Notes under the pieces: generated by a model | The model's database searches: none | What the model saw: only the letters and a program-made list of their open reading frames with translations | Told to the model about the DNA's origin: nothing | Assembly: GCF_006345805.1 (NCBI RefSeq) | Contig: NC_043003.1 | Span: 45,942,001-46,006,000 of the forward strand | Origin: Octopus sinensis | Taxonomy: Eukaryota | Direction: 5' to 3' | DNA: 64,000 bases | Translations under genes and position numbers: made by a program | Shown: positions 1,966-56,415 of the stretch, in pieces | Layout of the letters: each line of letters starts with the position of its first letter | Position numbering within the stretch: the first letter of the stretch is position 1

Positions 1966-2053
<88 letters not shown>

Positions 2054-2066
2054 GATAACTTTACAC

Positions 2067-3130: not shown

Positions 3131-3197
<67 letters not shown>

Positions 3198-3200
3198 ATA

Positions 3201-3460
3201 CCGGAGTAAGCACATGAATGTGAAACAAGGTGGAAAAAAAGAGTACTTAAACACCACAGGAAGAGTAATATGCTTTATTTAAAAGCAGCAGAAATATAAC
3301 AAAAGCTGTTACTCGGATTTTCACGTTCCCGTTCGTCAGGAACGTGAATCTCCGAGTAACAGCTTTTGTTATATTTCTGATGCTTTACTGTCCGACTAAT
3401 GGGAACGTGAAACTCCGAGTAATAGCTTTTGTTATAGTTCTGCTGCTTTTAAATAAAGTA
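3201..3460. mobile_element. Foldback Penelope-type terminus with degenerate HHRs (family 2); homologous to 54018-54247
   Basis: Left arm 3273-3340 is inverted twice (3339-3386, 3388-3458); the minus strand reads CUGACGA-ACG-GGAA-CGU-GAAA-AUCCGAGUA-ACAG. Confidence 0.7.
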
Positions 3461-5684: not shown

Positions 5685-5805
5685 TGTGTTGTTGTTCTGG
5701 TTTGTTGTTCTAGTTTTGTATGTGTGTTGTTGTTCTGGTTTGTTGTTCTAGTTTTGTATGTGTGTTGTTGTTCTGGTTTGTTGTTCTAGTTTTGTATGTG
5801 TGTTA
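5685..5805. repeat. 38-bp tandem repeat x3 in GTT-rich low-complexity DNA upstream of the Penelope RT
   Basis: ctggtttgttgttctagttttgtatgtgtgtt at 5697, 5735, 5773. Confidence 0.9.
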
Positions 5806-6111
5806 TTATAGTTATTTATGTGAAGGATGTTGTGGTGATTTTCACTTTTGTTGTCACTAACATTGCTATTGTTGCTGTTTTGGTTTCGTATGTTTGTCTT
5901 GATGTTATATTGTCCTAACCTCCATCTTATTTTCAAGAATATTTTTCCGATATCAAACAATCAATTTTTCACACCTTACATGTAACGAATTTCGGTTGTA
6001 ACTCTAAGGTATGCACTTCATCCGTATCTAGCTGTACTACGCCGTATATTCAGAAGTGTAATTGCTGCTCTTCGTGTATGTATATATATAAATATATATT
6101 CCTTTTCCTAT

Positions 6112-6146
6112 GTTTCTGACGAAGAGCTCCGCTCGAAACGTTAAAC
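6112..6146 (+). ncRNA. Minimal type I hammerhead (family 3) in a short Penelope-type terminal fragment (~6095-6250)
   Basis: GUUU-CUGACGA-A-GAGC-UCC-GCUC-GAAA-CGU-U|AAAC; stem I GUUU/AAAC, palindromic ACGU stem III. Confidence 0.8.
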
Positions 6147-6379
6147 CCTCCTTCTTTCCTTCTTTCCTGAGCGTCCAATAATACTATACTTGTTCCACGT
6201 CATCGCGTTGTTGTGTTTTCTCTTTGTGTTTTCATGTTTAGATTAACTATATATATATATATATATAATATATATATATATATATGTATGCATGTATGTA
6301 TATATATATACATTTATATACATATATATACATATATATATACATACATACACACATATATATATATGCACGTGTAGTT

Positions 6380-6494
6380 TCAGTCATTATAATGTGACCA
6401 TGCAGTGGCGCCACCTTAAAGAATTGGAGTCGGAGTTATCGACAACACACGCGCACACACACACATACGCACACACACACACACATTCACACAA

Positions 6495-6559
<65 letters not shown>

Positions 6560-6822
6560 CATTGATGCACACATACAAGCGGCATACAGGATTGGGAGAC
6601 AAATAAACATACATAATACATGCATGCATATATACATACACACGCAAACACACACACACACACATGACGATCTTCTTTCAGTTTTCGTCTACCAAATCCA
6701 CTGACAAAGCCTTGGTCAGCCCGAAGCTATAGTAGAAGAACTTGCTCAAGGTGCCACGCAGTGGGACTGAACCTAGAACCATGTGGTTGGGAAGCAAGCT
6801 TCTTACCACACAGCGACGCCAG
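6380..6822 (-). mobile_element. SINE family B (tRNA head + CORE-like segment), degenerate
   Basis: ctaccaaatccac…caaggtgccacgcagtgggactgaacc…accatgtggtt…ttaccacacagc. Confidence 0.75.
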
Positions 6823-7139
6823 TATCTAACATACAAAAAAATATTTATTCTTATGGAGACAGAAAATCATGACAAAGACGATTTTTCATCTTCCGTTCGT
6901 AGTAAGAACAGAACTCTGATGTAACATGTATAATAAACCTTGTACGTACCTACTGCCAGATTGCGTGGACTAATAACAGTTATGTGCCCCAGCCTTGAAC
7001 AAAACTTAACATAGGCGACAGGATATAAATCTTCGATAATCTAACCGCTCGATTGTCAACAGTTCAGCGTGTGAATGTAAATATATGAGAGCCATTCACA
7101 CTCTTCTCATTATCATCTTCCCTCACTTCTTTCTTCATG

Positions 7140-7180
<41 letters not shown>

Positions 7181-9524: not shown

Positions 9525-9830
9525 AGGGCCGGATTAAGACATATCGAGGCCATAAGCACTTAAAAGATTATGTAATCCAAAATATTTAACAATAACGAAA
9601 CCATAAAATACATTTTTATTTTCCGATACGAAACAGAACAACAAGAGAGAAAATAATGTTTATTTTTGTATACTTCCCCTTTATTTATATTTGGAAAGTT
9701 TCCTCCTACATTTTTGAATTGCAGTCTTTGATCAGATCCTCAAATTTAATTTTAGGTAACACATCCGCATCTAACTTAGTAGAGATAAAGGCATCCCGAA
9801 TATTATATTAGCAAGTTTAAAGTGATTTCT
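9525..9830 (-). mobile_element. hAT DNA transposon 3' end remnant
   Basis: Terminus cagggccggattaag at 9524; minus strand with frameshifts reads LSLLS…DADVLPKIKFEDLIKD-AIQKCRRKL, resembling the hAT C-terminal dimerisation region. Confidence 0.55.
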
Positions 9831-10669
9831 TTTGTGCCGTATACTATTTACCATTCTTGCGGTGCCCCTTTCTTCCATTGATGTCCTCAGCACGTGCTTA
9901 TTTTGCTTAATGGTTAACCCAGCGCTGCGTATATGGCTTTCTTTTAAGACTATAGACACGTGGTTGAGTGTTGCAATATCAGGTTGCAATATGCGCTTTG
10001 AAATTGTTGTTCAACCGTAAGAGAGCTCTTACCGAGCATACATTTGACCACAGGCGTTCCAGCTATGACCACACTTACCTCTTTGATTTTGTTTTTTTTT
10101 CTTCATTTTTTTATATATATTGCAAGGTTTTCTCCCTTTTTAAGACATTAGTGATTTCAGTGAGTTTTAGCATGTTTAGTATGCATTCGTGTGTTTATTG
10201 TTGTTCCTTAATTGTAGGTCAACCATTATTTAGGACTACATTACGAAATGTATCTGTCGTGTTTTTCTTTTATTGGTAGCAGGATGTGCTTTGAAGTTGA
10301 TTTGGCTAATAGATGTTCCTATGTAAATGTGATGGCTTCATATTGCTGTCGAGGAAGATAAGTGTGGTGGCTCAGTACTAATGGGGTTGAATAGTGTTAA
10401 TGTTGGTAATTAAAGGTTAGTATTAGTGATAGAATATCCTTATTTTTTCATCCAAGTTCACATCCGATTAAGCATGTTTCACAGCAAAGGCGTTCCAATC
10501 GTGACTATCCGTTCAATGTTTCACAGAAATTATATTGTCAAATGTGTCCTTTAACATTTGGCATGGCTCGTTGAGTCATGTCGAATTTCGTTGCTGTTTT
10601 CAGCAAATCGAGTGACCATATAGAGGCACCGTTGTTGGATGGGGCTGGTAGTGAATTTTGTGGCTGTTG

Positions 10670-17334: not shown

Positions 17335-19005
17335 GTACGTGGGACTTTTACTCAGGCGAAGGTTGTATAGCAAACTCAGTAATCTCAGTTCTGCATGGAT
17401 TGATTGCAAAAAGCATTCGAAGCATACCGCATTCATGAATCTTGAAATCACTGGATATCTTTAAAATTTCTCCTGTGGTTTCAAACTTCTTGTAGCACAT
17501 GTCAATTTGGAATAAGAACCTCCAATTTATACCACTATAAAAAAGTACTAACTACAAAAACTATTAACATCAACTACGGCATTTTCCAAGGTGACTCATT
17601 TCCACCTTTAATTTTCTGTATGGCCCTAATATTCCTTACAAGAGAACTTAACAGAACCGGGTATGGATATAAAACTGGCGACAAGAAAATAAGTCATCTG
17701 TTTTATATGGATGACTTAAAACTCTATGGCAAAGACGATAAGCTTGAAGGACTACTATTTACTGTAAAAGCCTTCAGGGATGACATTGGGATGGAATCTG
17801 GTCTTGATAAATGTGCCAAAGCCACTTTCCAGAAAGAGAAATTGAAGACCGCACATTCAGTAGTGTTGGATGTTGCCACAGTTATAAAAGAACTCGAGCA
17901 GAGACAGACTTAGAAATAACTTGGAATAAATGAGGGCTCTGGTATTCAACATACAAGTTTGAAAGAGATGATCAGGAAGGAGTGTTACAGGAGTGTTCGA
18001 TCAGTCGTCAAATCCGAGTTAAATGCACTTAACAAGGTGTCAGCTATAAATTCCTCAGCAGTTCCGGTTGTTATTTACAGTTTCAATGTGTTGAACTGGA
18101 ACATGAGCGAAGTAAAGACGATTGACAGGAAAATCCGGAAGCTGCTGACTTGCAATAAGATGCAACACTCAAACGCAGATTGTCTTTACCTACACAGATC
18201 TCAAGGAGGTCGAGGCTTGATCCAATTTGAAATGTCCTACAAAACCCAACCACCACAATTGGACTGGCAAAATATCTTGAAACATCTAGCGACTTCATGC
18301 TAAAGCTCGTTGAAAACCATGAAAGACGTAACAAGCTTCATTCTGTTATGAAGGAGAGCAAAAAGTTTTCAAGTGAGTTTATACATAATACCTGACAAAT
18401 GATACAAGTACCACCATGAGACTGTAACGTTGTGACATCCCAATATGTACAGACCGGACCATCAAGACAAATAAACCAGATATTGTTGTTAAAGACAAAA
18501 ACAATAAAGTCTGCTTATTGATTGATATGAGCATACCCTGTGACTATAATAGAATTTGATAGGCTCAGAAAATATAAAGATTTGCTAATCGAAATATAAA
18601 AGATGTAGCATCTCAAGACGGTTACAATACCTATCAATGTAGGAGAATTTGGAATGATTAGAAAAGGAACTAAAAATTATTTAAGAATTATTCCTGGCTT
18701 ACCATTCATGCAGGAAGTTTAAAGATTGTCTTAACTGGTACGACACACGTATTGAGAGGAGCATTGTCGCTTTGAATTTTCTTTCCTTTCCCCCTTTTTA
18801 TTTTATTTGTTTACTTTTCAATTTTTTCCTTTTTCTCACTGTCTTCCCTTTTTTTCTCTGTCACATGACTCTGCAAATGAACAATCTGATGTGTTTGTTT
18901 TAATGGCCTACCAATATATACAGTATGTTTCTCTGCCCTAAGTGTCAGGAAGGCATACGGCAAGAAACAGAAACAGAATTGACAGAAGATGCTAACGAAA
19001 ATAAT

Positions 19006-19070
<65 letters not shown>
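17335..19070 (+). pseudogene. R4/Dong-clade non-LTR retrotransposon, decayed and internally deleted, with (TAA)n tail
   Basis: GIFQGDS; ISHLFYMDDLKLYGK; GLDKCAK; LYLHRSQGGRGL; restriction-like endonuclease NKPDIVVKDK…CLLIDMSIP…KYKDL; ends in (TAA)n. Confidence 0.85.
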
Positions 19071-19071
<1 letters not shown>

Positions 19072-19508
19072 CTTTTACTTGCTTCAGTCATTTGAATGCC
19101 GCCATGCTGGAAAACCACCTTTGGTCGAGCAAATCGACACCATGACGTATTCTTTGTAAGCCTAGTACTTATTCTATCGGTCACTTTTGCCTAAACGCTA
19201 GGTTACGAGGTCGTAAACACACCGGCATCGGTTGTCAAGCGTTGTTGGATGAGACAAGCACAGACGCAGAAACAAACACACACATACACACACATATACA
19301 CACTCACAAACACACACACACAAACACACACACACACTTATATATATATATATGTACGTTGGGCATCTTTCAGTTTCCGTCTACCAAATCCACTTACAAA
19401 GCTTTCGTCGGCACCGGGCTATAGTAGAAGACACTTGTCCAAGGTGGCACGCAATGGGGTTGAACCCGGAACAATGTGATTGGTAAGCAAGCTGCTTACC
19501 ACACAGCA
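19071..19508 (-). mobile_element. SINE family B, near full length
   Basis: Reverse complement of the copy at 43033-43452. Confidence 0.85.
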
Positions 19509-21912: not shown

Positions 21913-22169
21913 ATGAGACGGATTGATCTTATAGACTGTGTGTATATTGAATAATTTATTATACATATTTGTAATGGACTATTAAGTCCAATAATTGTCG
22001 GTTTTGATGGGAAAAAAGAACAACGTTTTAGAGAAGCAGAAAAAGGCGGGCGTTTTCTGCCTTCTCTCAACAATATCATCCTTGTTTCATCATTCACCTC
22101 ATCAATGTATATGTCCAGCCCGCAAGCTGCTCTTTGTAATGCCTTTATGGCAAATCTTAATGAAATAAA

Positions 22170-22535
22170 GTAGCTTGCTTACGAACCACATGGTTCCGGG
22201 TTCAGTCCCACTGCGTGGCACCTTGGGCAAGTGTATTCTACTGTAGCCTCGGGCCGACTAAAGCCTTGTGAGTGGATTTGGTAGACAGAAACTGAAAGAA
22301 GCCCGTCGTATATATGTATGTGTGTGTATATGTTTGTGTGTCTGTATTTGTCCCTCCAACATCTCTTGACAACCGATGCTGGTGTGTTTACGTCCCCGTA
22401 ACTTAGCGGTTCGGCAAAAGTGACCGATAGAATAAGTACTAGGCTTAGAAAGAATAATTCCTGGGGTCGATTTGCTCGACTAAAGGCGGTGCTCCACATG
22501 GTAACAGTCACATGACTGAAGCGAGTCAAAGAGTA
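22170..22535 (+). mobile_element. SINE family B
   Basis: ggttccgggttcagtcccactgcgtggcaccttgggcaagtg…gactaaaggcggtgctcca. Confidence 0.9.
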
Positions 22536-29462: not shown

Positions 29463-32400
29463 AAAACTTACTTAGATAAAACTTAGATATGTTTCGACCA
29501 GAGATTGGTCCAGGCCATGTCTTACTTAATAGCACCACCTGATAGGATTATTCGAATCCTGTTTAAGTCAAGTTTTGTTCAAGTAGTGAGTTCTTGTTGG
29601 GTGAGTTGTATCCAGTTTTGTTCAAGTAGTGAGTTCTTGTTGGGTGAGTTGTATCCAATTATGGGTGGCTTATCTGGTATTCTTTGAAGGATCTATCCAG
29701 ACTCTGTTTGAAGTTGATGGGATCCTTTTCCTCTTTGATCTCCCTCGGGACAATGTTAAATAGGGCAGGGCCTGTTGAGGAAAAGAAATTATGTTGCAGT
29801 GTACATGTATGTTGTGATCTTGAATTTGGCAGGGGACGTATAGCCCGTGGTCCAAGTCTCGGATGAACCTTGAAGCTAATGTTTAGGTCGTTTGGGCAAA
29901 GTTGGCGGTATATTTTCCACATCGTACAAATGATATACCGCTCACGGCGACGCTGGAGGGAGTAAAGTTTCAAGGCTTTAAGGCGATCCCAATAATCGAG
30001 AGCAGCCATGCCTTCAATTGTTTAGTGAGAGCCTCTGGGGTGACTCAATTCTGGAGATGTTTTGTCTTGTGTGAGGAGACCACAGTGGGCAGCAGTATTT
30101 AAGGTGAGGCCGTACAAAGGATGAAAAAAGTGGTATGATGACACCTTGTTCTCTGGACCGGAAAGTTCTTAAGATCCAGGAACTCATCCTACGAGCTGTA
30201 TCGACCTTCTTGTTGATGTGTGCACTCCAACTGAGATCGTCATCAACAATTACACTCAGGTCTCTGATATTGTTAGAGGCTGTGAGCGGTTCCCCTGAAG
30301 GAAGAGAGTATGGTTGTTTTAGTGAGGAATTTCTTCCAAAATGCATCAGCTCAAATTTTCCCTCATTCAGTTGCATTTGTTTCTGTCTGCCCATTGACTC
30401 ACAGCATATAGGTCAGACTGGAGTTGAGTTCGGTCTGCTTCTTCATTGACGATTTGCTGGAGCTTAGTGTCATCAGCGAATATTTTCACTTTGCAGTGAT
30501 GTACGACACTGGAAAGGTCGTTTACATAAATTATGAAGAGTAGCGGACCCAAAACAGTTCCCTGGGGAACACCGCTGGTGACTTTTGCTGGGTTTGAGTG
30601 GACTCCATCAACTACAACATGTTGTGTTCTATTCGCTAGGAAATACTGAATCCAGTGTAGAACTTTTCCACGGATTCCAACATTTGCCAATTTTGAGAGT
30701 AGGATGTTATGGTCTACCCTGTCGAACGCTTTACTGAAGTCAAGGTATATGACGTCAGAGTTCGAACCTGTTCCCAAGGCTTTGAGTACATCTTCAATGT
30801 GGTGTAAGAGCTGTGTTAGACAGTCCCTGCCATAGCGAAAGCCATGCTGATTTGAATTTAGGAGTTTGTGGGTCTCCAGGAAGTCAGCTATCCTTGATCT
30901 TAACACTCTTTCAAACACTTTAATGATGTGGGAAGTGAGTGAGATTGGGCGATAGTTGACTGCGAGGGATCTGTTTCCCTGTTTGAAAACTGGGATGACC
31001 GACTGGGATAGAAACTTTTTCGGTATATAACCTGCGTCTAACGAGTTTCTCCAGAGGTTGGTCAGAGGGACTGCAAGTTGATATCTACATTCCTTCAGGA
31101 GACTGGCGGGAAATCTATCAGGGCCTACAGCAGAGTAATGTTTGACCTCATTTATTGCTGCTACGATGTCGGTGGCAGTGAAGGTTATGTCTGCGATTTT
31201 GTGTTGGGAGTCAGCTTCGTTCGTTTCCCTCACATCAATATCAGTGGGAACACTGAAGACAGAGCAATATTGTTTCTGCAGTATTTCTGCCATTTCTTTA
31301 GCATCGTGTTGGGGAATGCCGTTTTCATCAATCAATGGCCCAATAGGTGAGACAGTGGTTCTATGCTTATTTGCATAAGAATAGAACACTTTTCGGTTCT
31401 GTTTGATGTTTTTGATTACCCATTGTTCCTCCACAGCTCTTTGATTTTCAATGGAGGTTTTCATGTTAGTCTGCAGATGAAGTTTTTCCAGCTCTAGTCT
31501 TTTCATTGTTGTTGAATGTGGATGTTGCGTGTGGGAATATTTTAATTGGTTGATTTTTTTGTTGAGTCTTTTGATGCGCCTGATGAGTGTTTTTTTCTTT
31601 TTAGGGAGCCGGTTTCTGTTTGTGTTAGTAGATTTCTTGGGAGCGTGTTTCGAGCATGTGTCGGTGACAATGGTTTCAAAGTGCTGCCACGCGGTCTCAA
31701 TATGAGGGGAATTGAGAGTAAAAGACCAGTCGATGGAAGACAGATCCTTTCTGATTGTTCCCCAGTCCGCTTTGGGGAATTTATGTTGTCAAATGGGTGC
31801 CATGGAGTGGGATGGCTGGTTTGGTTTTTATACGTCGGGAATTAAGATTGCAGAGTACCATGTCGTGGTCTGAGAGGAGAGTTTTTTCGACTGAAATGCT
31901 GCGAACGTAGCTAGAGTGATTGGTCAGTACCAGATCCAAGATCGTTTTATTCTGTCTCGTTGGTTCAAGCACTAGCTGAGTCAGGAAATACTCATCCATC
32001 AGATTAAAGAGCAGTTCTGCTGCTGCCCTATCTGATGTAGAGCACTTGCCTAACTTCGGAGTATTTGTGGGCCAGTTCACATGAGGGAGGTTAAAATCAC
32101 CCATCACTATTACGTTTCCGGAGTGGTACTTCCGAAGGAAGGACTTGACTTTGCTAAGGCACTCTTCAAAGTACTTTAGAGGTGCATGGGGAGGCCTGTA
32201 AAGACCAACAATGGTTATGTCCTTGGCTTTGTTGTATACTGATACCGATTCACAGTAGCCATTGGAAAATGTGTCCTTGGCATCAAGTGAAAAGGAGTCA
32301 TGGATAAAGATGGCTGTCCCTCCCTTATTTCGGTCTGTGCGATCCGCACGAACAATGGTGAAATCTTTTATTTTCACCTCTGCGTCCATATGGGTGTTGT

Positions 32401-32630
32401 TCAGGTGAGTCTCGGTAAGGATAAAGAAAGGGAAGCAATGTGCCATTTCTGCAAGCCAACTCTCTATATATGGGATCTTCCATTTTTGGGCAATAATTGA
32501 TGGGTTGATGCCACGTACATTTAACAGGAATGTCGAGGTAAGGGAAGTTGGTAATGGGTGAGTGGTCCTTGTGATTTGCATAGATGGTTGGTGATGGCTC
32601 GCTGGATCTCCTGGCTTAGGTCGGCCTTCA
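29463..32630 (-). pseudogene. CR1-type LINE ORF2 (APE endonuclease + RT), nearly complete, few frameshifts
   Basis: EN: LNVRG, LTETHL, GLYRPP, MGDFNLP, LDLVLTN, LSDHD; RT: YRPISLTS, QHGFR, YLDFSKAFD, GVPQGTVLGPLLF, FADDTK; C-terminus YCCPLWSP; short tandem tail next to (TA)n. Confidence 0.92.
29571..29656. repeat. 43-bp exact tandem duplication in the LINE 3' end
   Basis: agttttgttcaagtagtgagttcttgttgggtgagttgtatcc x2. Confidence 0.9.
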
Positions 32631-32632
32631 TA

Positions 32633-33685
32633 TATAACTTAGAATAACTTAGAATAACTTAGAAAGGTTTTGGCCAGTATTGGCCCAGGCCATGTCTAAC
32701 TTAATAGCACCACCTGGCGAAGTCTTTCAATTCAGGATTTGGGCACCGAGGCCCATTCGTGCAGAGAGTTATTGTTTGCGGAGACATATCCGGGTGTGGG
32801 TGGTTTGTCCGGGACTGTTTGAAGGAATTTGTCCAAAGACTTTTTGAATTTTGTGTGGTCAGTTTCTGTTTTGACGTGTCCTGGTGTAATGTTGAAGAGA
32901 GCGGGTCCAATTGAGGTGAAATAATTGTGCCGTATTGTCGTTATGTGATGCGATTTAGATTTTTGTTGTGGACGGATGGCACGTGGTCCAAGCCTTGGAT
33001 GTATTTTGAAAGTGATGCCAACATCATTCGGACAGTGCTGATGGAATATTTTCCACATCATACAGATAATGTAGCGTTCACGGCGTCGTTGGAGTGAATA
33101 CAGTTTCAGCTTCTCTAGTCTACCCCAGTAGTCAAGGTCTGACATGCCATCTATCTTTTTTGTGATTGACCTTTGGGGAGCTTCAATTCTCATAATATTT
33201 TGTTTTGTGTAGGGAGACCACAGTGGACAGCAGTATTCAAGGTGGGGTCGGGCAAAAGTGGAGAAGAGAAGGATAATAGTGTGGGAATCTCTCGACTGGA
33301 AGGTTCTGAGAATCCAGGAACACATTCTGCGGGCCATGTCAACTTTGCTGCTTATATGTGTAGCCCAGCTTATGTTGTTGTCCACTGTTACTCCCAAGTC
33401 TCTGATGTTGTTGGACGCCATGAAAATTTCTCCAGAAGGAAGGGAGTATGGGATTTTCAGAGCGTCCTCCCTTCCAAAGTGGATCAGTTCGAATTTGTCT
33501 TCGTTTAGCAACATGTTCTTTTCCGCCCATTGGACAACAGCCAGTAGGTCTGACTGAAGGCTTATTCGGTCATCCAAGCCATTGATGACCTTCTGGAGCT
33601 TGGAATCATCAGCGAATGTTCTGATGTTACTGTGTTTGGTGGTGTCAGTAATATCATTTATGTAGATGATGAAGAGAAGTGGTGC
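32633..33685 (-). mobile_element. Second CR1-type LINE subfamily, 5'-truncated RT C-half with open frame
   Basis: ORF 32732-33715: PLLFIIYIND, FADDSK, LEYCCPLWSP, LQRRRER; tail (aacttagaat)n. Confidence 0.9.
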
Positions 33686-35450
33686 TGAAAAAAGAGCAAT
33701 ATATATATATATCATTAATAAAGCTGCAAAATGATCACGTTCTGATTCGTCGGACAGCTGTGATGAATACTCTGTATTCGAGAACTATTTTTTTTGCCTT
33801 GTTTTGCATCTGTGTTACTTGTGCGTGTATGTGTATATATACATATTATGATGTACTTCAGTGGTAAATATCCCACACAAGTATCTTCTATTGCAAGCCG
33901 ACGAGAAGGACGGTGTCTCAAATCACTTTTGAACGTTACCTATGACAGAGATAGAGTTATCCTTCGCACAAATATATCGACAAAGCAAAATTAAGTACGA
34001 AATGTATGGAGGTTGATATTCATGAATAGATTAAGAATCTTAACCAAATTAACGTCAGGATATCCAAATCGATTATTATATTACGTTCTTCAAGATGGAC
34101 ATCTTAAACTTTTTATTGTTTTATATTTTCCGATATTTACTTTATATTTGCATTATATGCATATAAAAACTGTATCTAAGCACATTAAGATTCGAGTGAA
34201 TCCAACGTTAGAGTACACTAAAGTATTTTACATAAAATTTCACTCGTGTAGGTTTTGAAATTAATCGCTTTTTTTGTGTGTTGCAGACGTTGATTTTATT
34301 CTTCGATTTATCAATAATTCGATTATATCATTCTATTCTTCAGAATTTCCTCACACCACCACTAATGCACAAACACAAGACAAACTCCTTACACCGTCTA
34401 GGCCCTCAAACTTCTTCCTCAATATCATTATATATGTGTGTGTGTGTAAATATATATACATATATATACATATGTATATAACAGTATGCATCATTTCATG
34501 TATGTATGTGTATGTGTGTATGCATGTATTTGTGTATGCATGTATGTGTGTGTATTTACGTGTGTGTGTATGTACGTGTGTGTGTATGTACGTATGTGTG
34601 TATGTACGTATGTGTGTATGTGCGTATGTACGCATTTATGTGTGGATACAGCATTCACAAAGCCACAGCCAGGGATATACATTTCAACACAGCCAGTCAG
34701 AAACACATATGCATGTGACTGTGCATATATACGTACATATATAGAAGTATATGTATATATACATATACAGATATGAATAGATGATCCTAAGTATATATTA
34801 ATGTGTATATGTCAACGTGTGTATATACGTACACATAAGCACACGTTCATATACGCATACACATACATATATTCCCAAACACAGACACATATATGTATCC
34901 ATCTACCTATATGTGTATGTGTATATATAACCGATTCCAGCATGGACAACGGACGCTAAACGATGATGAGGATGGTGCTGATGATGAGTATGATGATGAG
35001 GATGATGTATCATTAATATTGACTCTCTTTTAGTTTATATATCTCACAGTAATTTATTACTTTTTTCCACAATCCCAATAGATTAAACTCAACATTTAAT
35101 GGGAAAAATCATTTTGAATGTTGAATTCTCGAGTGTCCTTAAACTATAATTAAATTTTTGGAGCTGCATTATTTTGGATTGCCCACACACACACACATTC
35201 ACACACACTCACAAACAGACACACAAATACACACACACACAAGCGCATACACGCACGGACTCAAACTTGCACATATACGCTTGCATAAATGTACATACCA
35301 CACACATGTATGTATGCTGTATGTATATTAAAATTGCGTATGTTTAATAGAATTATTTTCTTTCTATATATGTATATACACACATATACATCTGGATATA
35401 AATACGCCTCTATGTATATTTATATAATTAACATTTACGTATTAATTATA

Positions 35451-35546: not shown

Positions 35547-36803
35547 TGTATGTATGTATGTACGTATGTATATATAATGTATGTATGTATGTACGTATGT
35601 ATATATAATGTATGTATGTATGTATGTATACTATATATGTCTGTATCTATAACAGGTTTCCCACAAGTAAATTTGTGGAACACAAAAGGAGAAAATAATT
35701 TCAGGACTTTATCATAAATAACAGAAATCTCTACATACATTTTTATCAAATTACCTTACCAACTTCAATTGTTTTAGTCTATTTAATCATACGATATGAA
35801 AAGTGTAAATAAATTAAATTATATTGATGTTTCATGAAAACACCTTTTGAAGTCCATATACTTCTTTTACAAAATCTATATAGTAGTGGTTATTGGTATT
35901 AATTTTGGTATTGCTGCTAACAGTTTTGCCTTCATATTATTGATAGCCTTAGTTGTAGCCAATAGTCTACGTCGTAGTAGTAGTTGTATTTCTCCAAAGC
36001 GTCGAAACATACGTAGCAGCGGCAGTAGCAACAGGCTGTATTAGTATTGCAAAAAATGGTAGAAGACGTAGATGCAGTTGTAAAGATTTGTTCTACTCTT
36101 CTAGTAGGACTAGTGGGTTGAGTAACTAAGGACCAGCAACTGTTGTAGCAGAAGCAATAGTTACCGTAGTGGTAGCTGCAGCAGCAGCAGTAGTAGCAGT
36201 AGTAGTAGTAGTAGCAGCAGCAGCAGCAGCTTCAGTAACTTTCACTTTCGGCTTTAGTTTGTATAGAAAATCTACATAGAGAATTGTAAAAAAAATTGAT
36301 TGAATAGCACTACTAACACACGTAGGACACAGTGTTGACAAATAAGCCTTTCATATACTTGGTAGTATATTATGGTTGCAAGACGAAATACGGTGTTTCT
36401 ACAAGTAATATATGTAGCTACAAGTTGTCAGGAATGTTTTTTCTTTATACGTAAAATTGGTATATTCAATTATTACAACGCTAAATTTGGTGGTTATTTA
36501 AGCAAAGTGTTCGTGGATGGTTAAAAGGTTGGATGTGGTACTGAAAACAGAGCAATAACTCGTGAAATATGAATATACACTGATTACCTATGTTTCTTCA
36601 ATCGCAATGTATGCATGGACTTATTCTTATACGAAACGTAATTTTTAGTGCTGACTTTAGTATCTCTAGAAAATATGTAGAGATAATTTAATAAGTGGTG
36701 TGTGTGTGTGAATAGTGTATATAAGCACACACACACACATACGCCATGATAGATCGTTAGCTCCAACACGCATTTTTTCTCTCCTTGTTTTTTTTTCTGT
36801 GTA

Positions 36804-36841
36804 TCTTTCTGTCGAAGAGCGTAGGCTCGAAACGTAAAAGA
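36804..36841 (+). ncRNA. Minimal hammerhead (family 3), core variant CUGUCGA
   Basis: UCUUU-CUGUCGA-A-GAGC-GUAG-GCUC-GAAA-CGU-A|AAAGA; followed by the ttcctgagcg also seen after the 6112 copy. Confidence 0.6.
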
Positions 36842-37249
36842 CTTTTTCTATTCCTGAGCGCTATACTAATACATTTGTCTGTTTGTACTCCACCTGTCTT
36901 CGTCTTTTGTTTATTTTCGTAAACTTTCCCCTTATATCTATATATATACACGAGCAAAACGCCCCCATCCAATGGACGGTGCTGAGCTATCAAACATTTA
37001 AACCAGATTTTCTCAAAACAACTTGTTCGACCGTCCCATAGGACGCCCCTTTGAGAAACACTGATTTAACCTAAATTTCAGACACCAGCAAAAGAAGAAA
37101 TACAAGTAGACTTTTTTCTATTCCAAAGGAAAACAATTTTATTCACATAAATATGCATCCGAAGAGTTTAAAGTACCAGTAAGTGCATCACAACAGCTGA
37201 TGTATTCGCGCGTACAAATGCACGTTCACACGGCTTTGTCGATCGCATT

Positions 37250-38019: not shown

Positions 38020-38480
38020 ATATGTTTCTTTATTAGCCACACAGGGCTGCACACAGACGGGACAAATTACAAAGTAGAACTTTTCTTTGGGGGAGAAAAA
38101 AAAGGGTGGGTAGGTTTTCGATCAAAAGGGATTGTAAAAAGGAAAGAAAAAAGAAAGAAAGAGGAAGGAAAGGAAAAAAGGGGGGAGGAAAATCGATCAT
38201 TAGGGATCGTGTATCACAGAAAGATAGATAGATAGATAGATAGATATGTAGGTAGGCTCGTAGGTAGATAAGTAGGCTGGTAGATAAATACATAGATAGA
38301 AAGAATGAGTGAGAGAGAGAGAGAGAGAGAGAGCGAGAGACAAAATTTACCCTACATATGGCCGGGGCCCTGGAGTGAGACCTAAAAAGAAAGGTATGGA
38401 TTAGGAATGTCTGATGAAGAACATTTGATCTGAAAACTCTCAAGACATCTGCAATAACCCGCTGAGAAATGCCTGTTTCG
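38020..38480 (-). mobile_element. Probable L1/Tx1-like LINE 3' end
   Basis: Minus strand has a T-rich 3' UTR ending …gtgtgcagccctgtgtggctaataaagaaac; no diagnostic protein motif. Confidence 0.4.
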
Positions 38481-38635: not shown

Positions 38636-39048
38636 CTCTTACTCTTTTATTCTTTTACTTGTTTCAGTCATTTGACTGCGGCCATGCTGGAGCACCGCCT
38701 TTAGTCGAGCAAATCGACCCCGGGACTTATTCTTTGTAAGCCCAGTACTTATTCTATCGGTCTCTTTTGCCGAACCGCTAAGTGACGGGGACGTAAACAC
38801 ACCAGCATCGGTTGTCAAGCAATGCTAGGGGGACAAACACAGACACACAAACACACACATACATATATATACATATACATATATACGACAGGCTTCTTTC
38901 AGTTTCCGTCTACCAAATCCACTCACAAGGCATTGGTCGGCCCGGGGCTATAGTAGAAGACACTTGCCCAAGATGCCACGCCGTGGGACTGAACCCGGAA
39001 CCATGTGGTTGGTTAGCAAGCTACTTACCACACAGCCACTCCTGTGCC
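38636..39048 (-). mobile_element. SINE family B, full length, young
   Basis: Complete head-to-tail match to family consensus. Confidence 0.92.
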
Positions 39049-39215
39049 TATATCCATAATTTTTTTATTTCTACAAAGTTTTAAAACTTTTATATCCATA
39101 AACCTATTTAAGAAAATTAAATCTCCTCATTACTCTATTACCATTTATTGTATTCCATCTTATTTCATTTTATTTCTTTCAGATAGATAGATAGATAGAT
39201 ACATATGGCCAGATA

Positions 39216-39610
39216 GGCGCAGGAGTGGCTGTGTGGTAAGTAGCTTGCTAACCAACCACATGGTTCCGGGTTCAGTCCCACTGGGTGGCATCTTGGGCAA
39301 GTGTCTTCTGCTATAGCGCCGGGCCGACCAATGCCTTGTGAGTGGATTTGGTAGACGGAAACTGAAAGAAGCCCGTCGTATATATGTATATATATATATA
39401 TATGTGTGTGTGTATGTCTGTGTTTGTCCCCTTAGCATTGCTTGACAACCGATGCTGGTGTGTTTACTTCCCCGTCACTTAGCGGTTCGGCAAAAAGAGA
39501 CCGATAGAATAAGTACTGGGCTTACAAAGAATAAGTCCCGGGGTCGATTTGCTCGACTAAAGGCGGTGCTCCAGCATGGCCGCAGTCAAATGACTGAAAC
39601 AAGTAAAAGA
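39216..39610 (+). mobile_element. SINE family B, full length, young
   Basis: ggcgcaggagtggctgtgtggtaag (A-box-like)…gggttcagtccc (B-box-like)…gactgaaacaagtaaaaga. Confidence 0.92.
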
Positions 39611-41869: not shown

Positions 41870-43203
41870 TGTGCAACCACCAGCAAAAAGAAGAAAATTG
41901 AAAGTTATATCAGTAGCCAAGAGTTCAAACATTTGTGCTGGTGCTAGAACATTCGACGTTATCGAGAAGATGGTACTAGAGTGGAGAAAGAATGAGGAAA
42001 CATTGAGACAAATGATCACACAAAAATGTACAATGAGAAGAGGAAGCACTCGTTGGCCGAAGTTGGGAAAAAATGTAGCAGAATGGGTACTCCAGCAGAC
42101 ACAAGATGGCTACCTTGTAACACGAAATAGAATAAAATTTTAGCCCTAAAATGGGCTAAATCGTATAAAGAAGAAACGTAAGATTTTAAAGCAACATTAG
42201 GCTGGTGCAATTGTTTTAGGAACAGAAAAAATCTGGTAATAAGAGAAAAAAAACAAAAATCGCCCCCCAAACACCCGAGAGATCTGGATCACAAAGTAAC
42301 CAGCATTCCATCATGGAGCTGAGAAAAAGTCGTCAGTTTCCATTGTTTCATATTGGAAATATGGATGGAACTTCATTAAACTTTGACATGCTGGGTAACA
42401 AAATGATAGATTTGAAAGGAGTAAAAACAGTTTACGGTAAAAGTACAGGATATGAGAAAACGAGGTTTATGGTGGTATTATCCTGCGTAGCTGACCGTAC
42501 AAAATGAAAACCCATGGTTTTTTTTAAAACGTAAAGTAAAGTCCAAAATAGATTTTTGCTCTTGGTATTTTTGATCATTTTCACGAGGAAAGGTGGATGG
42601 ACGAGAGTGGTGTGAAATTACGGATTGATAATATTTGGAACAGGCGGCCAAGTGGTATACGAAACAAACGCAGTGTATTGGTTTGGGATATGTTTCGTAG
42701 CCCCGTAGCGGCAAATACTAAAACCCAGTTATCCAAAACCAATGCTGATGTTGCTATTATTCCTGATGGTTTTACTTCTATACTGCAGTCACTTGATGTC
42801 AGTTTAAACAAACCATTTAAAGATAATGTGAGAGAGCAATGGAATGACTAGATGATGAATGGAGAAAAATCTTTTACAAATGGTGGAGCTATCCGTGCTG
42901 CTTCAGTTGATGTTGTCTGTGATTTTGTTATAAAGGTGTAGGATAAAGTAGAAAATGTGGTAAAATCATTTTAAAAATGCGGTATCTCTAATGCAATGGA
43001 TGGTAGTACCGAAGAAGATATTCTCTACAATAGGCGTAGGAATGGCTGTGTGGTAAGTAGCTTGCTTACCAACCACATGGTTCCGGGTTCAGTCCCACTG
43101 CATGGCACCTTGGGCAAGTGTCTTCTACTATAGCCTCGGGCCGACCAAAGCCTTGTGAGTTGATTTGGTAGACGGAAACCGAAAGAAGCCTGTCGTATAT
43201 GTG

Positions 43204-43239
<36 letters not shown>

Positions 43240-43585
43240 CGTTTGTGTGTCTGTGTTTGTCCCACCAACATCGCTTGACGACCGATGCTGGTGTTTACGT
43301 CCCCGTAACTTAACAGTTCGGCAAATAGAGACCGATAGAATAAGTACTAGGCTTACAAAGAATAGGTCCGGGGGGCGATTTGCTCGACTAAAGGCGGTGC
43401 TCCAGCATGGCCACAGTCAAATGATTGAAACAAGTAAAAGAATAAAAGAGTAAATAGCGACGGCCAAGTCGAAATCGATTCACCAGAACCAGCCTGGAAT
43501 CCTTACGATGATGGCATATGTGATGAATCTTGTAATATGTATGAGAAACTTTTAAAAACAGATAATGATGATTGTGAGGAATAAA
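41870..43585 (+). pseudogene. pogo/Tigger-family (POGK-like) transposase, decayed, interrupted by a SINE
   Basis: KLKVISVAK…WRK (Brinker-type HTH); WPKL…VAEWV…FKATLGW (CENP-B HTH); IGNMDGT, GYEKTRFMVVL, LVWDMFRS, IPDGFTSILQSLDVSLNKPFK (DDE); acidic tail after the SINE. Confidence 0.88.
43033..43452 (+). mobile_element. SINE family B, full length, inserted in pogo transposase
   Basis: Full consensus; short aatag repeat at both junctions. Confidence 0.92.
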
Positions 43586-44705: not shown

Positions 44706-45481
44706 TACACGTTGGGTGACGTAAATCCTTCTTTCCCAAGAAAAGTCTGGATTATAACTGTTTGTCATTTATTTTCCAGTAATCTCAGTTATTGGACTGC
44801 GGTCATGCCGAGGCAGCCACTCTAAAAGATTTTGCCGAGCAGATCGATCCTAGTACTTCTATTAGTTTCTTTTAACGAAACACTCAAGTACAGGCACATA
44901 TACAAACCAACACCTATTGTCAAAAATGCACACATACATATACGTGTGTATGTGTGTGTGTATGTGTGTGTGCGTGTGTATGTGTGTGTGTGTGTGTATG
45001 TGTGTGTGTGCGCGCGCGCGCGCGCGTGTGTGTGTGTGTTTGTGTGTGTGTGTATGAATATGCTTTATTAATAATCAGTAGAATTGGTAACTCAAAGTAA
45101 CACAAAGGCTAAGAGTTTCGTTCGTTAGCAATTCTGAAAGCACAAATCTGTTGAGCCTGGTGTCACTGTATCTCCTGCTGATTATTCCTTAAAAAATTAA
45201 TATATATGAATCAACTAGATTATATTCTTCTGCTATTTCATTTCTAACGTTCATTGTAAATTTCGTTTATATTTTCTTTACTGAAAAGTACATTGTCATA
45301 TATAATTAATTAATTAAATTAATTTAATCTAATTCAGTTCAATCATAAATTTGCATTATTTTTATATCTCTGTACGAAACGATCGTCTGCATGAATTAAA
45401 ATTCCTTATATATTTTAACTACTTGTCTTCTCCATTTTTAACTAACTTGATGAGTTGGTGAGGGGAGGGAAAGAAAGGTGG

Positions 45482-45514
45482 TTTTACGTTTCGAGCAAAG
45501 CTCTTCTTCAGAAA
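45482..45514 (-). ncRNA. Minimal hammerhead (family 3)
   Basis: Minus strand UUU-CUGAAGA-A-GAGC-UUU-GCUC-GAAA-CGU-A|AAA; flank homologous to 56200-56320. Confidence 0.75.
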
Positions 45515-48345: not shown

Positions 48346-48843
48346 TCTTTTATTCTTTTACTTATTTCAGTCATTTGACTGCAGCCATGCTGGAGCACCA
48401 CGTTTAGTCGAGCAAATCGAGCCGAGGACTTATTCTTTGTAAGCCTGGTACTTTTTCTATCGGTGGATTTGGTAGTCGGAAACTGAAATATATATATATA
48501 TGTACGCGTGTATATATTTATGTGTATGTGTTGTGTTTGTGTCTGTGTTTGTCCTCGGCCACCAATCGCTTGACATCGAACTTGGTGAAACTGGTAGAAG
48601 GAAACTGAAAGAAGCCCGTCGTATATATGTATGTGTATATGTTTGTGTGTCTGTGTATGTCCCCCCAACATCGCTTCACAACCGATTCTGGTGTGTTTTC
48701 GTCCCCGTAACTTAGCGGTTCGGTAAAATAGACCGATAGAATAAGTACTGCGCTTACAAAGAATAAGTCCTGGTGTCGATTTGCTCGACTAAAGGCGATG
48801 CACCAGCATGGCGGCAGTCAGATAACTGAAAAAAGTAAAAGAA
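48345..48843. mobile_element. Rearranged SINE family B: minus 3' end joined to plus copy with internal duplication
   Basis: 48345-48462 reverse of 48725-48843; ggtag…gaaactgaaa occurs twice. Confidence 0.75.
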
Positions 48844-49289
48844 TATCGTAGAACTATAACCAATTTATTGCAGATAAATGGTAATAAAATCTTAGATGGA
48901 CCCCCAACGGTCTTATGGACCCCGGGTGAGAACCACTGCCCTATAACTTTATAAAAGGAAAATCGTTATGCTAGAAGTAGTAGTCAAGCCATTCTCAGTT
49001 TTTGTCCCACCGCTATAAATAACACAAGGATGCCTTGGTTTATGCAATCATAAGCAAACTCCTAAAAAGTTTAGGTTGTCACGATTGGAATGTCTGATTA
49101 ACATAGGTCAACACAACAGCAACTGACCTAGGGTTAAACAACAGCAAGATTAGCAAAAGAAAGTCACAGTGGACAATGTAGTTCAGAGAGAAGACCACAG
49201 CTGGAAATCCTTTGATCATAGGTCTGCTCAATCAGGGCGGATCTGGGGTTAAATCCATCAAGAACGACGACAACAATGGCTTAATGTCA

Positions 49290-51809: not shown

Positions 51810-51985
51810 AGAAATGTTTGTATATTATGAGCGTTTCTTTTTACGTTCTGTGTTCAAATTCTGCCGAGGTCGACTTTGCCTTTCGTCCTTTCGGGGTCGA
51901 TAAATTAACTATCAGTTGGGTACTGGGGACGATCTAAAAATTGGCTCCATTCCCACAAAAAATACAGGCATAGGAAAGTAATTTT
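51810..51985 (+). mobile_element. SINE family A, degenerate
   Basis: gttcaaattctgccgaggtcgactttgcctttcgtcctttcggggtcgataaatt. Confidence 0.8.
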
Positions 51986-51999
51986 GACAGTTATCACCC

Positions 52000-53140
52000 A
52001 CCCCGCCCTTTCTCCGCTCCTCGGTACTTTTTAGGAAGTCTCTACGCCCCTCCTCGAACTTTTCCAGGAAGTCTTTCCTGCCCGTCCTCCACCTCGGAAC
52101 TTTCAAGGAAGTCCCTATCCAACTCACAGGATTTTCCCGGAAGTCCTTCCTCCCCTCCATCCCTTCCTTCTCTTCATCCACCTCCTCAGAACTTTCCAGG
52201 AAGTCACCCTGTTGGGAACGTTCCAGGAAGTCCCCCTCCTCGGAACTTTCCATGGAGTCCTTCCTCCCTTTCCTCCGAACTTTCGAGGAAGTTCCTACCC
52301 CATCCTCAGACTTTTCCAGTAAGTCCTTCCTCCCCTTCCTCGGAACTTTCCAGGAAGTCCCTCTTCCTTGGAACTTTCCAGGAAATCCCTACTCCTTCCA
52401 TGAAGAATTCCTTCCGCTCCACTTCCTCGGAACTTTCCAGGAAGTTCTTCCTCCCATTCCTCGAGACGTTCCAGGAAAACCTGCCCCTCCTCAGAACAGG
52501 AATTATCTCTGACCCCCCCTTCCGAGTAAGGACTTTCGGAGTAAGGACTTTCCGAGTAAGTACCAGAGAGTTCTTCCTCTCCCTACCCCTTACTCGAACT
52601 CTCCCAGAAAGTCCCCCTCCTCCCCTTCTTCTACAACACTCCTTGGAACTTTCCAGGAAGTCTCCCTCCACTCCTTCCTTCTCTTCATCCACCATCTTTG
52701 GAGCTTTCCAAGAAGTCTTTACTTCCTCAGACTTTTCTTGAAGTCATTCATCCTCCCCTTCTTCGGAACTTTCCAGGAAGTTCTTCCTCCCCTTCCTCAG
52801 GACTTTCCAGTACAGGAAGGCCTCCAGGAACAGGAAGGCATTCATCCCCTCCTACCCTTTCTCATCTTCATGCCCCTTCTCGAAACTTTCCCAAAGTCCC
52901 CTTCCCGCAACGATCCAGGAAGCGCCCTTCATTGGAACTTTCCAGGAAGTCCTCCTCCCTTTCATCGGAGCTTCCCAGGAAATCCGTACCACTCCTCGGT
53001 CTTTTGAAGGAAATCCTTCCTCCCCTCCTCACCTTCCTTGGGACTCTCCAGGAAATCCTGCCTCCTCCCCTTTCTGGGAACGTTCCAGGAGATACTTACT
53101 CCCTCTAGAACTTTCCTTTCCATCCTCCCTTTCCTCGAAA
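52000..53140. repeat. Irregular minisatellite built on GGAACTTTCCAGGAAGT
   Basis: Roughly 25 degenerate copies by eye, separated by C/T-rich spacers; 15-bp repeat x3 at 52520-52560. Confidence 0.9.
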
Positions 53141-53423
53141 CAGATGCGTATATATGTAACCGAAAAATCCCTCTTTATTATATTTCCTACATATATGAAA
53201 TTTGAAATTTCGATTACTATTATGATAATTTCATTAACTTGCCACTGACCCAAGAAACTTTGAATGTTAAATTGAAAGCTCTGTTAGCTGAGCTATTTCA
53301 GTTCACTCTGAAAAGCATTAATACTTCAATTGTTTGTAGTCAGGCATTAACACTTTACCATAATTAAAATAAACTTATTTTGCTAAAATATATCAAACGA
53401 AATACGTTATATATCAAAAGGTA

Positions 53424-53958: not shown

Positions 53959-54019
<61 letters not shown>

Positions 54020-54123
54020 GGAGTAACCACATAAATGTGAAACAAGGTGGAAAAAAAAGAGTACTCAAATACCAGTGGTAGAGTAATATGCTTTATTTAA
54101 AGCAGCAGTAAATTCAACAAAAT

Positions 54124-54161
54124 CTGTTACTCTGAGTTTCTCGTTGCCGTTCATCAGACAG
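54124..54161 (-). ncRNA. Type I hammerhead (family 2), minus arm
   Basis: Exact reverse complement of 54177-54214. Confidence 0.8.
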
Positions 54162-54176
54162 TTTTTCTAGCAAAAA

Positions 54177-54214
54177 CTGTCTGATGAACGGCAACGAGAA
54201 ACTCAGAGTAACAG
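54177..54214 (+). ncRNA. Type I hammerhead (family 2), plus arm
   Basis: CUGU-CUGAUGA-A-CG-GCAA-CG-A-GAAA-CUCAGAG-UA|ACAG; stem I CUGU/ACAG, GNRA-capped stem II, near-palindromic stem III, GUA triplet. Confidence 0.8.
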
Positions 54215-54246
54215 ATTTTGTTGAATTTACTGCTGCTTTAAATAAA

Positions 54247-54289
<43 letters not shown>

Positions 54290-55575: not shown

Positions 55576-56160
55576 ATGGCTGCCCCCTCGTTATCGAGTA
55601 TGGCCATTGCACGAAGCTTAACAGTTACTGGTGCTGTGATCAAATGTGACTTTTTAGCCCAGCTAAAGATCTACAATGTCTTGTACAGAATTGGCAACTA
55701 AAACCTTTACTAGTAATAGCCGGCTCTAGTTGTAACTGGGCTTCATGTACCTTTGCATGTCGCTTAAGTCCTCCTGCCGAATTACACTCTCTTCCACATG
55801 CCCGACAGATATGATTAGTATGGTGTGTTACACCACCACCAGTGGCCAGGTTGTCACTCATTTGTCTCGCTTTATGATTGCGAAGATGACTCTTGAGTCC
55901 AGCTTTACTGAGGCAGGGTCTTGCATAGACATTGCATGTCAGCATCAAAGGAAGACCCTTCCCTTCTGGAAGCGTAACAGCGATGCCCTTCCTGACATCC
56001 CTCCTTACTTTCTCATGTGCAACTCGAGATTTCTCAAAAGTGGCTGTCCCCTCATGCACAATCCTTTTCCACCTGCTACAATCAATAGCTATGCCTTCCC
56101 ACGTATCAGGAGAGATGCAAGCATCTCTTAAGGAAACCTTCAGCAAGTCCTTATACCTCT
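55576..56160 (-). mobile_element. RTE-clade LINE 3' end with three C2H2-type zinc fingers, flanked by (TACA)n
   Basis: KRYKDLLKVSL…WEGIAIDCSRWKRIVHEG (RTE C-terminus), then CNVYARPCLSKAGLKSHLRNH, CRACGRECNSAGGLKRHAKVH, CQFCTRHCRSLAGLKSHI*SQH. Confidence 0.85.
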
Positions 56161-56199
56161 TATACATACATACATACATACATACATTGATAGATAGAT

Positions 56200-56415
56200 A
56201 AATTGTGATCACATGTGGACTGTTGGCGACTTTCTTCCTCCGTCTTCCTTTTCTCTTGATTTTCCGTTTTCTGTTTCTGAAGAGTGCTTTGCTCGAAAAT
56301 GAAAACACCCTTTTTCTTTCTCTGAGCGCCTTATTAATACTTTGCATGTACCACGTCGTCGCATTGTTGCTCTTTTGTTGCTTTTTTTACTTCGTTTTTT
56401 TTTCTTCTATTAAGT
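56200..56415 (+). mobile_element. Family 3 Penelope-type terminal fragment with decayed hammerhead (56273-56306)
   Basis: gtttctgaagagtgctttgctcgaaaatgaaaac; flanks homologous to the 6.1 and 45.5 kb copies. Confidence 0.6.

What the first reader, a model, noticed from the sequence alone, without database searches (positions are those of the whole stretch)
54018..54247. Perfect palindrome carrying an intact hammerhead on each strand
Two 76-bp perfect arms around a 5-nt loop each encode CUGU-CUGAUGA-ACG-GCAA-CGA-GAAA-CUCAGAGUA|ACAG, pointing outward. A transcript from either direction contains the ribozyme preceded by its exact antisense, so hairpin formation competes with self-cleavage; the DNA can also extrude a cruciform. 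Zero mismatches imply a very recent insertion or arm homogenisation. Inverted pLTRs are known for Penelope elements, but a second locus (3201) with the same ends suggests a reproducible ~230-bp minimal product.
Basis: partly seen in the sequence, partly recalled or inferred. Interest (0 to 1): 0.78.

Follow-up and report, generated by a model that had tools for sequence, protein, structure and literature searches.

The report
Back-to-back Penelope retroelement tail stubs
The perfect palindrome is real and consists of two short tail-end pieces, likely from a Penelope-like jumping gene, joined back to back inside a TA repeat; each piece carries a weak-looking self-cutting RNA motif, and this is a known insertion pattern rather than a new kind of switch.

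Summary
Confirmed: two perfect 76-bp arms (54091-54166, 54172-54247), a 5-nt loop, one arm extended by a 73-nt tail, and both outer ends joined to (TA)n. Each arm holds the whole hammerhead core, but stem II is only two pairs closed by A·A, and stem III is the palindromic, dimer-requiring type, so 'intact' is not shown to mean active. The motif matches hammerheads of Hydra-clade Penelope-like elements (PLEs), which also target (TA)n. An inverted truncated copy with a one-sided tail is the textbook PLE insertion. Public contigs show a very abundant family (3,962-10,001 contigs laid in each of three large runs) with two fixed 3' ends but varying centres. The 3201 copy has the same ends, a different centre, an extra partial tandem and no complete hammerhead. 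So the ends recur; the ~230-bp product does not. 5' ends cluster just upstream of the hammerhead, not at its cut site, so the template was likely uncut RNA. No parent ORF was found, so Hydra membership rests on the motif and target only. Verdict: new member of a known kind; modest interest.

The parts
53960..54017 (.). (TA)29 microsatellite, left half of the target
54018..54166 (-). long copy of the retroelement 3' end (149 nt), reading outward to the left
54018..54090 (-). one-sided 73-nt 'tail' between the two fixed 3' ends; begins with a small stem-loop that is not better than shuffles (z -1.2)
   Evidence: (loose ends before 54021 and 54086)
54091..54166 (-). left palindrome arm, 76 bp
54124..54161 (-). 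type I minimal hammerhead motif, minus-strand copy; C3 at 54157, predicted cut after 54128
   Evidence: (mirror position)
54167..54171 (+). 5-nt loop CTAGC; native upstream sequence of the element, kept on the short copy only
   Evidence: loose ends behind 54166 begin with its complement in 36, 52 and 37 contigs
54172..54247 (+). right palindrome arm = short copy without tail, ending just past AATAAA
54177..54214 (+). type I minimal hammerhead motif, plus-strand copy: stem I CUGU/ACAG, core CUGAUGA and GAAA, stem II A·A plus 2 bp with GCAA loop, palindromic stem III ACUC-A-GAGU, predicted cut after A54210
54248..54285 (.). (TA)19 microsatellite, right half of the target
3201..3458 (.). second, more diverged insertion of the same family (87% identical): long copy 3201-3339 (-), then two partial tandem copies 3339-3386 and 3387-3458 (+); same outer ends, other centre, no complete hammerhead

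Best explanation
The palindrome is a head-to-head pair of 3'-terminal stubs of one very abundant repeat family, set in a (TA)n tract, and is likely a single insertion made by a Penelope-like (Hydra-type) retrotransposon enzyme. Shown: the geometry, the two fixed 3' ends, the (TA)n target, the varying centres and the motif match. Inferred: the enzyme nicked both strands of the TA tract and started reverse transcription at its two start sites, giving one long (tailed) and one short cDNA from the same uncut donor RNA. Both stopped 9-16 nt upstream of the hammerhead core and were joined through a few A/T letters or a fold-back over the 5-nt loop. The two hammerheads are passengers of the terminal repeat. 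In any read-through transcript the 76-bp hairpin would keep them from cutting.
For: Geometry equals the described PLE insertion: inverted 5'-truncated copy, tail at one end, (TA)n bias (PMC8557442 passages; PMC3846280). A purified PLE protein cuts and extends both strands, starts at two sites that define the tail, and uses uncut RNA (PMC11167929). The hammerhead matches Hydra-clade motifs: 28 fixed letters of Hydra-2_aMil hit both arms with 0 mismatches, and a 22-letter stretch of Hydra-2_aJap hits all five family copies in the window with 1-3 mismatches; 0 of 100 shuffles reached either count. 5 of 25 Hydra families in that table have the same ACUC-N-GAGU stem III and 15 of 25 have a non-pairing 10.1·11.1 (counted by hand). 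Penelope-13_HM is listed with an inverted copy and a hammerhead on both strands. Contigs laid on the long arm: 4,877, 10,001, 3,962 and 208 in four runs; (TA)n loose ends before 54021 (52, 64, 65 contigs) and before 54086 (16, 29, 19) in the three large runs; 4 of 4 strand-switch joints have one side at 54163-54165 and the other at four different places. Both arms carry T at 54109 (A in the mirror), where about 99.9% of family depth reads otherwise: one donor. No depth step at the cut site (1.75, 1.81, 1.86 million across 54120-54137 in X2).
Against: No parent ORF (reverse transcriptase plus GIY-YIG) was found: no genome is held, and five collection or supplement searches gave only chance-length hits or none. 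The tail is 73 nt against the 30-40 nt in the papers. None of the 25 Hydra families has A·A or a stem II as short as two pairs. The motif patterns were picked after seeing the best of 25 families, include universal core letters, and one has wildcards where the sequences differ. No listed contig spans this locus, so it is not confirmed independently. The short end shows in only about 6-8% of depth at 54090, so two-ended pairs may be a minority. Joints upstream of 54171 could not be seen, which biases the 5' cluster.
Confidence: 0.82

Rival explanations
1. The stubs are a non-autonomous, SINE-like family of about 155-170 nt with its own promoter, copied in trans by a PLE; the palindrome is one insertion form of it. 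This is a sub-case of the best explanation that differs in the source of the RNA.
For: Very high abundance, little variation in the hammerhead region (no variant row at 1% or more between 54124 and 54166), 5' ends near one place, an internal promoter in Drosophila Penelope (PMC2377424 passages), non-autonomous PLE derivatives in print (PMC8557442; bioRxiv 10.64898/2026.07.22.740005).
Against: 36-52 contigs per large run continue upstream into mixed AT-rich sequence (agreement 0.52-0.59), so longer forms exist; many copies are cut shorter (joints at 54054-54101). No RNA evidence on record.
Confidence: 0.35
2. The whole 230-bp palindrome is a unit that propagates as such, with hairpin-versus-ribozyme competition as a control.
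For: Same outer ends at two window loci. Summed depth on the loop letters is 209 in X1 and 754 in X3, above the 14-123 seen for most listed single contigs, so a few other loci may share this centre.
Against: Centres differ at 3201 and at 4 of 4 contig joints; loop depth is under 0.1% of arm depth, and only 8 in X2; a 5' hot spot would give the same centre independently; one arm alone is not predicted to fold as a hammerhead.
Confidence: 0.07
3. The second arm arose by self-priming on an antisense template, as proposed for rotifer Penelope palindromes, not from two cDNAs.
For: PMC3846280 discussion reads junction palindromes as self-priming; the native TT before the loop can pair with the A run; identical arms with a shared rare variant.
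Against: Simple fold-back does not by itself give two different fixed 3' ends, each joined to (TA)n; both-strand extension from two start sites has been seen in vitro.
Confidence: 0.2
4. Assembly or polishing artefact: a fold-back chimera, or arms made identical by polishing.
For: Perfect palindromes are a known long-read and amplification artefact (my knowledge); no listed contig spans the locus.
Against: The symmetry stops exactly at a family-wide 3' end, the flanks differ, and a diverged second locus and a second family (2050-3133) show the same build. Polishing could still hide one or two arm differences.
Confidence: 0.04
5. A DNA-transposon MITE with terminal inverted repeats and a TA target.
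For: Short, palindromic, TA-flanked.
Against: The inverted repeat is not terminal on the left (73-nt tail), centres vary, copies are 5'-truncated and partly tandem, and a PLE-type hammerhead is present.
Confidence: 0.02

Closest known systems
Hydra clade of Penelope-like elements (Craig et al. 2021, PMC8557442; Hydra-2_Amil, Hydra-2_Ajap, Penelope-3_HM, Penelope-13_HM)
   Same: (TA)n target; type I hammerhead with a 4-bp CUGU/ACAG stem I, ACUC-N-GAGU stem III and often a non-pairing 10.1·11.1; core about 125-140 nt from the 3' end; inverted copy with a hammerhead on each strand in Penelope-13_HM.
   Different: No ORF attached; A·A rather than U·U or G-C at the base of stem II; stem II only two pairs; not the published octopus family Hydra-1_Obim, whose hammerhead differs.
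Inverted pLTR plus one-sided tail of endonuclease-bearing PLEs (Arkhipova et al. 2013, PMC3846280; Frangieh et al. 2024, PMC11167929)
   Same: Head-to-head inverted copies, palindrome at the junction, tail on one end only, partial tandems, uncut RNA as template.
   Different: Here the whole insertion is only the inverted pair (230 bp); the tail is 73 nt, not 30-40; no target duplication can be read in (TA)n.
Minimal PLE hammerheads (Cervera and de la Pena 2014, PMC4209133)
   Same: Palindromic stem III, predicted dimer requirement; that paper already notes pairs of minimal hammerheads 100-700 bp apart on opposite strands.
   Different: The G10.1-C11.1 pair it calls highly conserved is absent; the two cores here are about 25 nt apart.
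Animal non-LTR retrozymes (PMC7229834; bioRxiv 10.64898/2026.07.22.740005)
   Same: Short, non-coding, type I hammerhead, PLE-related.
   Different: Retrozymes are head-to-tail tandem repeats with a hammerhead in each unit that give circular RNAs; this is head-to-head, and the hammerhead is minimal.

Membership tests
Penelope-like element insertion (EN+) | Inverted 5'-truncated copy joined head to head | tested here: met
   four more strand-switch joints
Penelope-like element insertion (EN+) | Optional tail at one end only (two fixed 3' ends) | tested here: met
   both window loci and loose ends before 54021 and 54086 in three runs; 73 nt, longer than the 30-40 nt in print
Penelope-like element insertion (EN+) | Partial tandem copies | tested here: met
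   3339-3458; two go-back joints from 54166, read as partial tandems (table 5c)
Penelope-like element insertion (EN+) | Parent ORF with telomerase-like RT and GIY-YIG endonuclease | not testable with these tools
   no genome held; none attached at either locus; 6 of the window's 39 long frames were scanned and gave LINE-type domains or nothing relevant
Hydra clade | Insertion into (TA)n | tested here: met
   shared with Naiad, so not diagnostic
Hydra clade | Hammerhead near the 3' end of Hydra type | tested here: met
   patterns chosen after the fact
Hydra clade | Protein motifs (RWK, DKT, CxCX5C linker, no CCHH) and RT phylogeny | not testable with these tools
   no ORF available
Active type I hammerhead | Core C3-A9, G12-A14, A15.1-U16.1, H17 | tested here: met
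Active type I hammerhead | Paired 10.1-11.1 (usually G-C) and a stable stem II | tested here: not met
   A·A plus two pairs; natural Hydra motifs often have U·U here but 3 or more pairs
Active type I hammerhead | Folds as monomer or dimer | tested here: inconclusive
   monomer probability 4e-5; stem III self-duplex -7.4 kcal/mol; the two-arm minimum-energy fold was not the hammerhead dimer
Active type I hammerhead | Self-cleavage | not testable with these tools
   needs an assay
Non-LTR retrozyme | Head-to-tail tandem units each with a complete hammerhead | tested here: not met
   head-to-head at 54018; the tandem at 3339-3458 has no complete hammerhead
MITE / TIR transposon | Terminal inverted repeats with fixed ends and constant structure | tested here: not met
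   repeat not terminal on the left; centres vary

The most novel reading that the evidence does not exclude
The stubs are run-off cDNAs, like retroviral strong-stop DNA: reverse transcription starts inside the upstream pLTR of the transcript and falls off the RNA's 5' end just ahead of the hammerhead, so their 5' ends map the transcription start, and priming on both target strands gives a perfect hairpin. A subfamily with a crippled stem II (A·A, two pairs) has spread to thousands of copies because it escapes cutting, seeding the genome with perfect double-stranded-RNA substrates.
Probability: 0.25. Interest if true: 0.6.

Novelty: new member of a known kind. Interest (0 to 1): 0.3.

Why it matters
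As a single locus it matters little: inverted PLE ends and opposite-strand hammerhead pairs are in print. As a family it is a large natural record of PLE integration. Thousands of copies with two fixed 3' ends and readable junctions could test how the inverted structure forms, which PMC8557442 names as open, and whether the hammerhead plays any part. If the host is an octopus (recalled resemblance, untested), such hairpins could feed the high load of near-perfect double-stranded RNA and hyper-editing reported there (PMC5625713 passages).

Tried and rejected
Whole genome: none held, so no genome-wide copy survey and no search for the parent ORF. Rfam: no hammerhead family among the rows shown (150 of 223; 2 of 2); the microRNA-precursor matches over the palindrome are far below their thresholds and reflect any hairpin. 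Pattern scans: metagenomes 26 loci, viral contigs 0 and 2, prokaryote genomes 5; BLAST of all 33 loci gave at most a 30-letter match (L020, unrelated context) and otherwise 22 letters or fewer: chance. Sequencing runs: no RNA holder on record; run X9 is only guessed to be RNA, so its 208 contigs say nothing on expression. Contigs cannot show starts or ends of RNA, and none listed spans this locus, so polymorphism was not tested. Five family and neighbour motifs were absent from the Craig et al. supplement. The tail stem-loop looks by eye like stem-loops at the same place in Hydra-2_Amil and Hydra-2_Ajap, but is not better than shuffles (23 of 200) and is not used as evidence. A 29-codon frame starting in the hammerhead (read by eye) loses its ATG in the 3201 copy: rejected. 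Lunse et al. 2017 is not held. A paper search on 10.1-11.1 mismatches returned nothing relevant. Sequence and place look-ups in earlier findings were empty. Host species was not tested.

Full report
Observation. The sequence at 54018-54247 is as described in outline. The arms 54091-54166 and 54172-54247 pair at 76 of 76 positions around CTAGC, and the inner 129 nt fold far beyond chance (z -24.7). The left copy runs on for a further 73 nt (54018-54090). Both outer ends join TA runs of 29 and 19 units. The insertion therefore has two 3' ends and no free 5' end.

The hammerhead. All core letters are present on both arms, with a 4-bp stem I that can extend by four A-U pairs, and a predicted cut after GUA. 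Two features weaken it. Stem II is A·A plus two pairs. Stem III is the palindrome ACUC-A-GAGU, the type thought to need a second ribozyme. In one arm the hammerhead fold has -1.0 kcal/mol and probability 4e-5; the full transcript folds at -137 (plus) or -138 (minus) as one hairpin. Folding programs miss tertiary contacts, so this is no proof of inactivity. Cervera and de la Pena found no cutting by a single minimal motif and low cutting by dimers (PMC4209133; parts 1-2 of 4 read). No variant row at 1% or more is listed between 54124 and 54166, so A·A seems to be the common form of this subfamily and not a private decay; the 3201 copy has A-U there. Laying may under-sample diverged subfamilies.

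What it belongs to. The supplement of Craig et al. (PMC8557442; passages, section 11, supplement part 2 of 59 and four term searches seen) tabulates hammerheads of Hydra-clade PLEs. Hydra-2_aMil shares stem I, core, stem III and cut site with this motif: 28 fixed letters match both arms. A 22-letter stretch of Hydra-2_aJap matches all five family copies in the window with 1-3 mismatches. No shuffle of 100 reached either count, but the patterns were chosen after the fact and include universal core letters. By hand count, 15 of 25 Hydra families have a non-pairing 10.1·11.1 (14 U·U, 1 U·C, none A·A) and 5 of 25 have ACUC-N-GAGU. Nearly all target (TA)n. The published octopus family Hydra-1_Obim has another hammerhead, so this is not that family. 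No parent ORF could be looked for, so 'Hydra' is a likely assignment, not a tested one. That the host is an octopus is my recollection of its repeat landscape and comes from no call.

The family. 22 of 24 listed runs hold the stretch or part of it, under four organism codes, in 12 studies; the best share is 0.67 of 15 words. I laid 4 of the 24 runs on the long arm plus loop: 4,877, 10,001, 3,962 and 208 contigs. Depth is no copy number, but thousands of distinct contigs mean a very abundant family. (TA)n loose ends pile before 54021 (52, 64, 65 contigs) and before 54086 (16, 29, 19), which are the long and short 3' ends of this locus; 335 weaker loose ends were not shown. All 4 strand-switch joints have one side at 54163-54165 and the other at 54054, 54089, 54098 or 54101. 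Two further rows go back from 54166 with two letters between, which I read as partial tandems. The other 4 of 8 rows in the joint table are internal skips. With this locus, that puts seven of the eight 5' ends tallied from these joints and this locus on the upstream side 6-11 nt ahead of C3 and the eighth about 16 nt ahead, apart from the four shorter ends at 54054-54101. At 3201 the 5' ends lie at about 5 nt upstream, at C3 itself and inside stem II. Limits: joints beyond 54171 could not be seen, near-symmetric palindromes are hard for contigs to cross, and 36-52 contigs per large run continue into mixed upstream sequence. Depth shows no step at the cut site.

Mechanism. Shown: geometry, fixed ends, target, varying centres, and a rare variant (54109) shared by both arms. 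From the literature: inverted truncated copies with a one-sided tail are typical of PLEs; palindromes at inverted junctions are common in rotifer Penelope elements (PMC3846280; passages and discussion); a purified PLE protein cuts and extends both strands, starts at two internal sites that define the tail, and prefers uncut RNA (PMC11167929; parts 1-2 of 4). Inferred: two cDNAs, one per target strand, from one donor RNA, ending just upstream of the hammerhead and joined through the A/T run. If the hammerhead had made the template's 5' end, copies would begin at the 54211 equivalent and lack the core; both arms have the core, so the template was uncut. Arms are expected to be identical at insertion, so no homogenisation is needed. 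Zero mismatches bound arm divergence below 3.9%, or under about 5 million years if the calibration quoted in PMC13282606 (passages) applies.

The ends recur because they are the family's start sites for copying; the centre does not recur. A few loci may share this loop (summed depth 209 and 754 in two runs, 8 in a third), which a 5' hot spot would also give. Opposite-strand hammerhead pairs were noted in 2014 and listed for Penelope-13_HM. A second family at 2050-3133 has the same build without a hammerhead core string.

Novelty. The pattern is known; this family was not found in the one supplement searched or named in ten paper searches, but Repbase, Dfam and subscription journals were not searchable, and the supplement of PMC13282606 was listed, not read. 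None of the 12 listed of 15 papers joins 'Penelope-like' with 'strong-stop', so the run-off reading may not be in print; it stays a hypothesis. Other papers seen: PMC7229834, PMC8969392, PMC5625713, PMC6765202 and PMC2377424 as passages; bioRxiv 10.64898/2026.07.22.740005 part 1 of 5. Earlier AI notes from other genomes describe like stubs; they are leads, not support.

Verdict. Real; a minimal head-to-head insertion of a likely Hydra-type PLE end; ribozyme activity doubtful and untested; new member of a known kind; interest 0.3.

Noticed in passing
window 2050-3133: A second repeat family with the same build: inverted copy (2050-2444), partial tandem (2444-2678) and a copy with a one-sided tail of about 85 nt (2636-3133), both ends in (TA)n, 95-99% identical parts, no hammerhead core string found; may be a Naiad-type PLE end.
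   Followed up: partly
window 6101-6248; relatives at 56262-56369, 45465-45514, 36802-36855: A third family: a solo 148-bp stub with TA runs on both sides and a minimal hammerhead 15 nt from its 5' end (extra A after the core, 4-bp stem II, ACGU stem III); three decayed relatives.
   Followed up: partly
window 38404-38450: A degenerate hammerhead-like string with stem I and core but no proper cut-site triplet; single copy in the window.
   Followed up: partly
window 30367-32638 (-), 32732-33784 (-), 17446-17913 (+): Broken LINE-type frames: AP-endonuclease (PF14529, PF03372) and reverse transcriptase (PF00078) matches; the 32732 frame gave no Pfam match but reads like a LINE C-terminus.
   Followed up: partly
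window 55640-56386 (-): 248-codon frame ending in several C2H2-like zinc fingers, weak Pfam hits only; perhaps a retroelement C-terminus.
   Followed up: partly
window 38837-39427, 19067-19507, 22168-22496, 43030-43260, 48621-48846: Many copies of SINE-like repeats, some as close inverted pairs (215-bp arms, 94%, 161 nt apart).
   Followed up: no
window 51900-53250: GC-skewed degenerate tandem repeat with long open frames on both strands and no Pfam match in the one frame tested.
   Followed up: partly
bin 54162-54167: Run X3 (organism B) has 7-9 times more depth at the extreme 5' end than X1 and X2 (organism A), a possible species difference in full-length stubs; depth is a poor measure.
   Followed up: no
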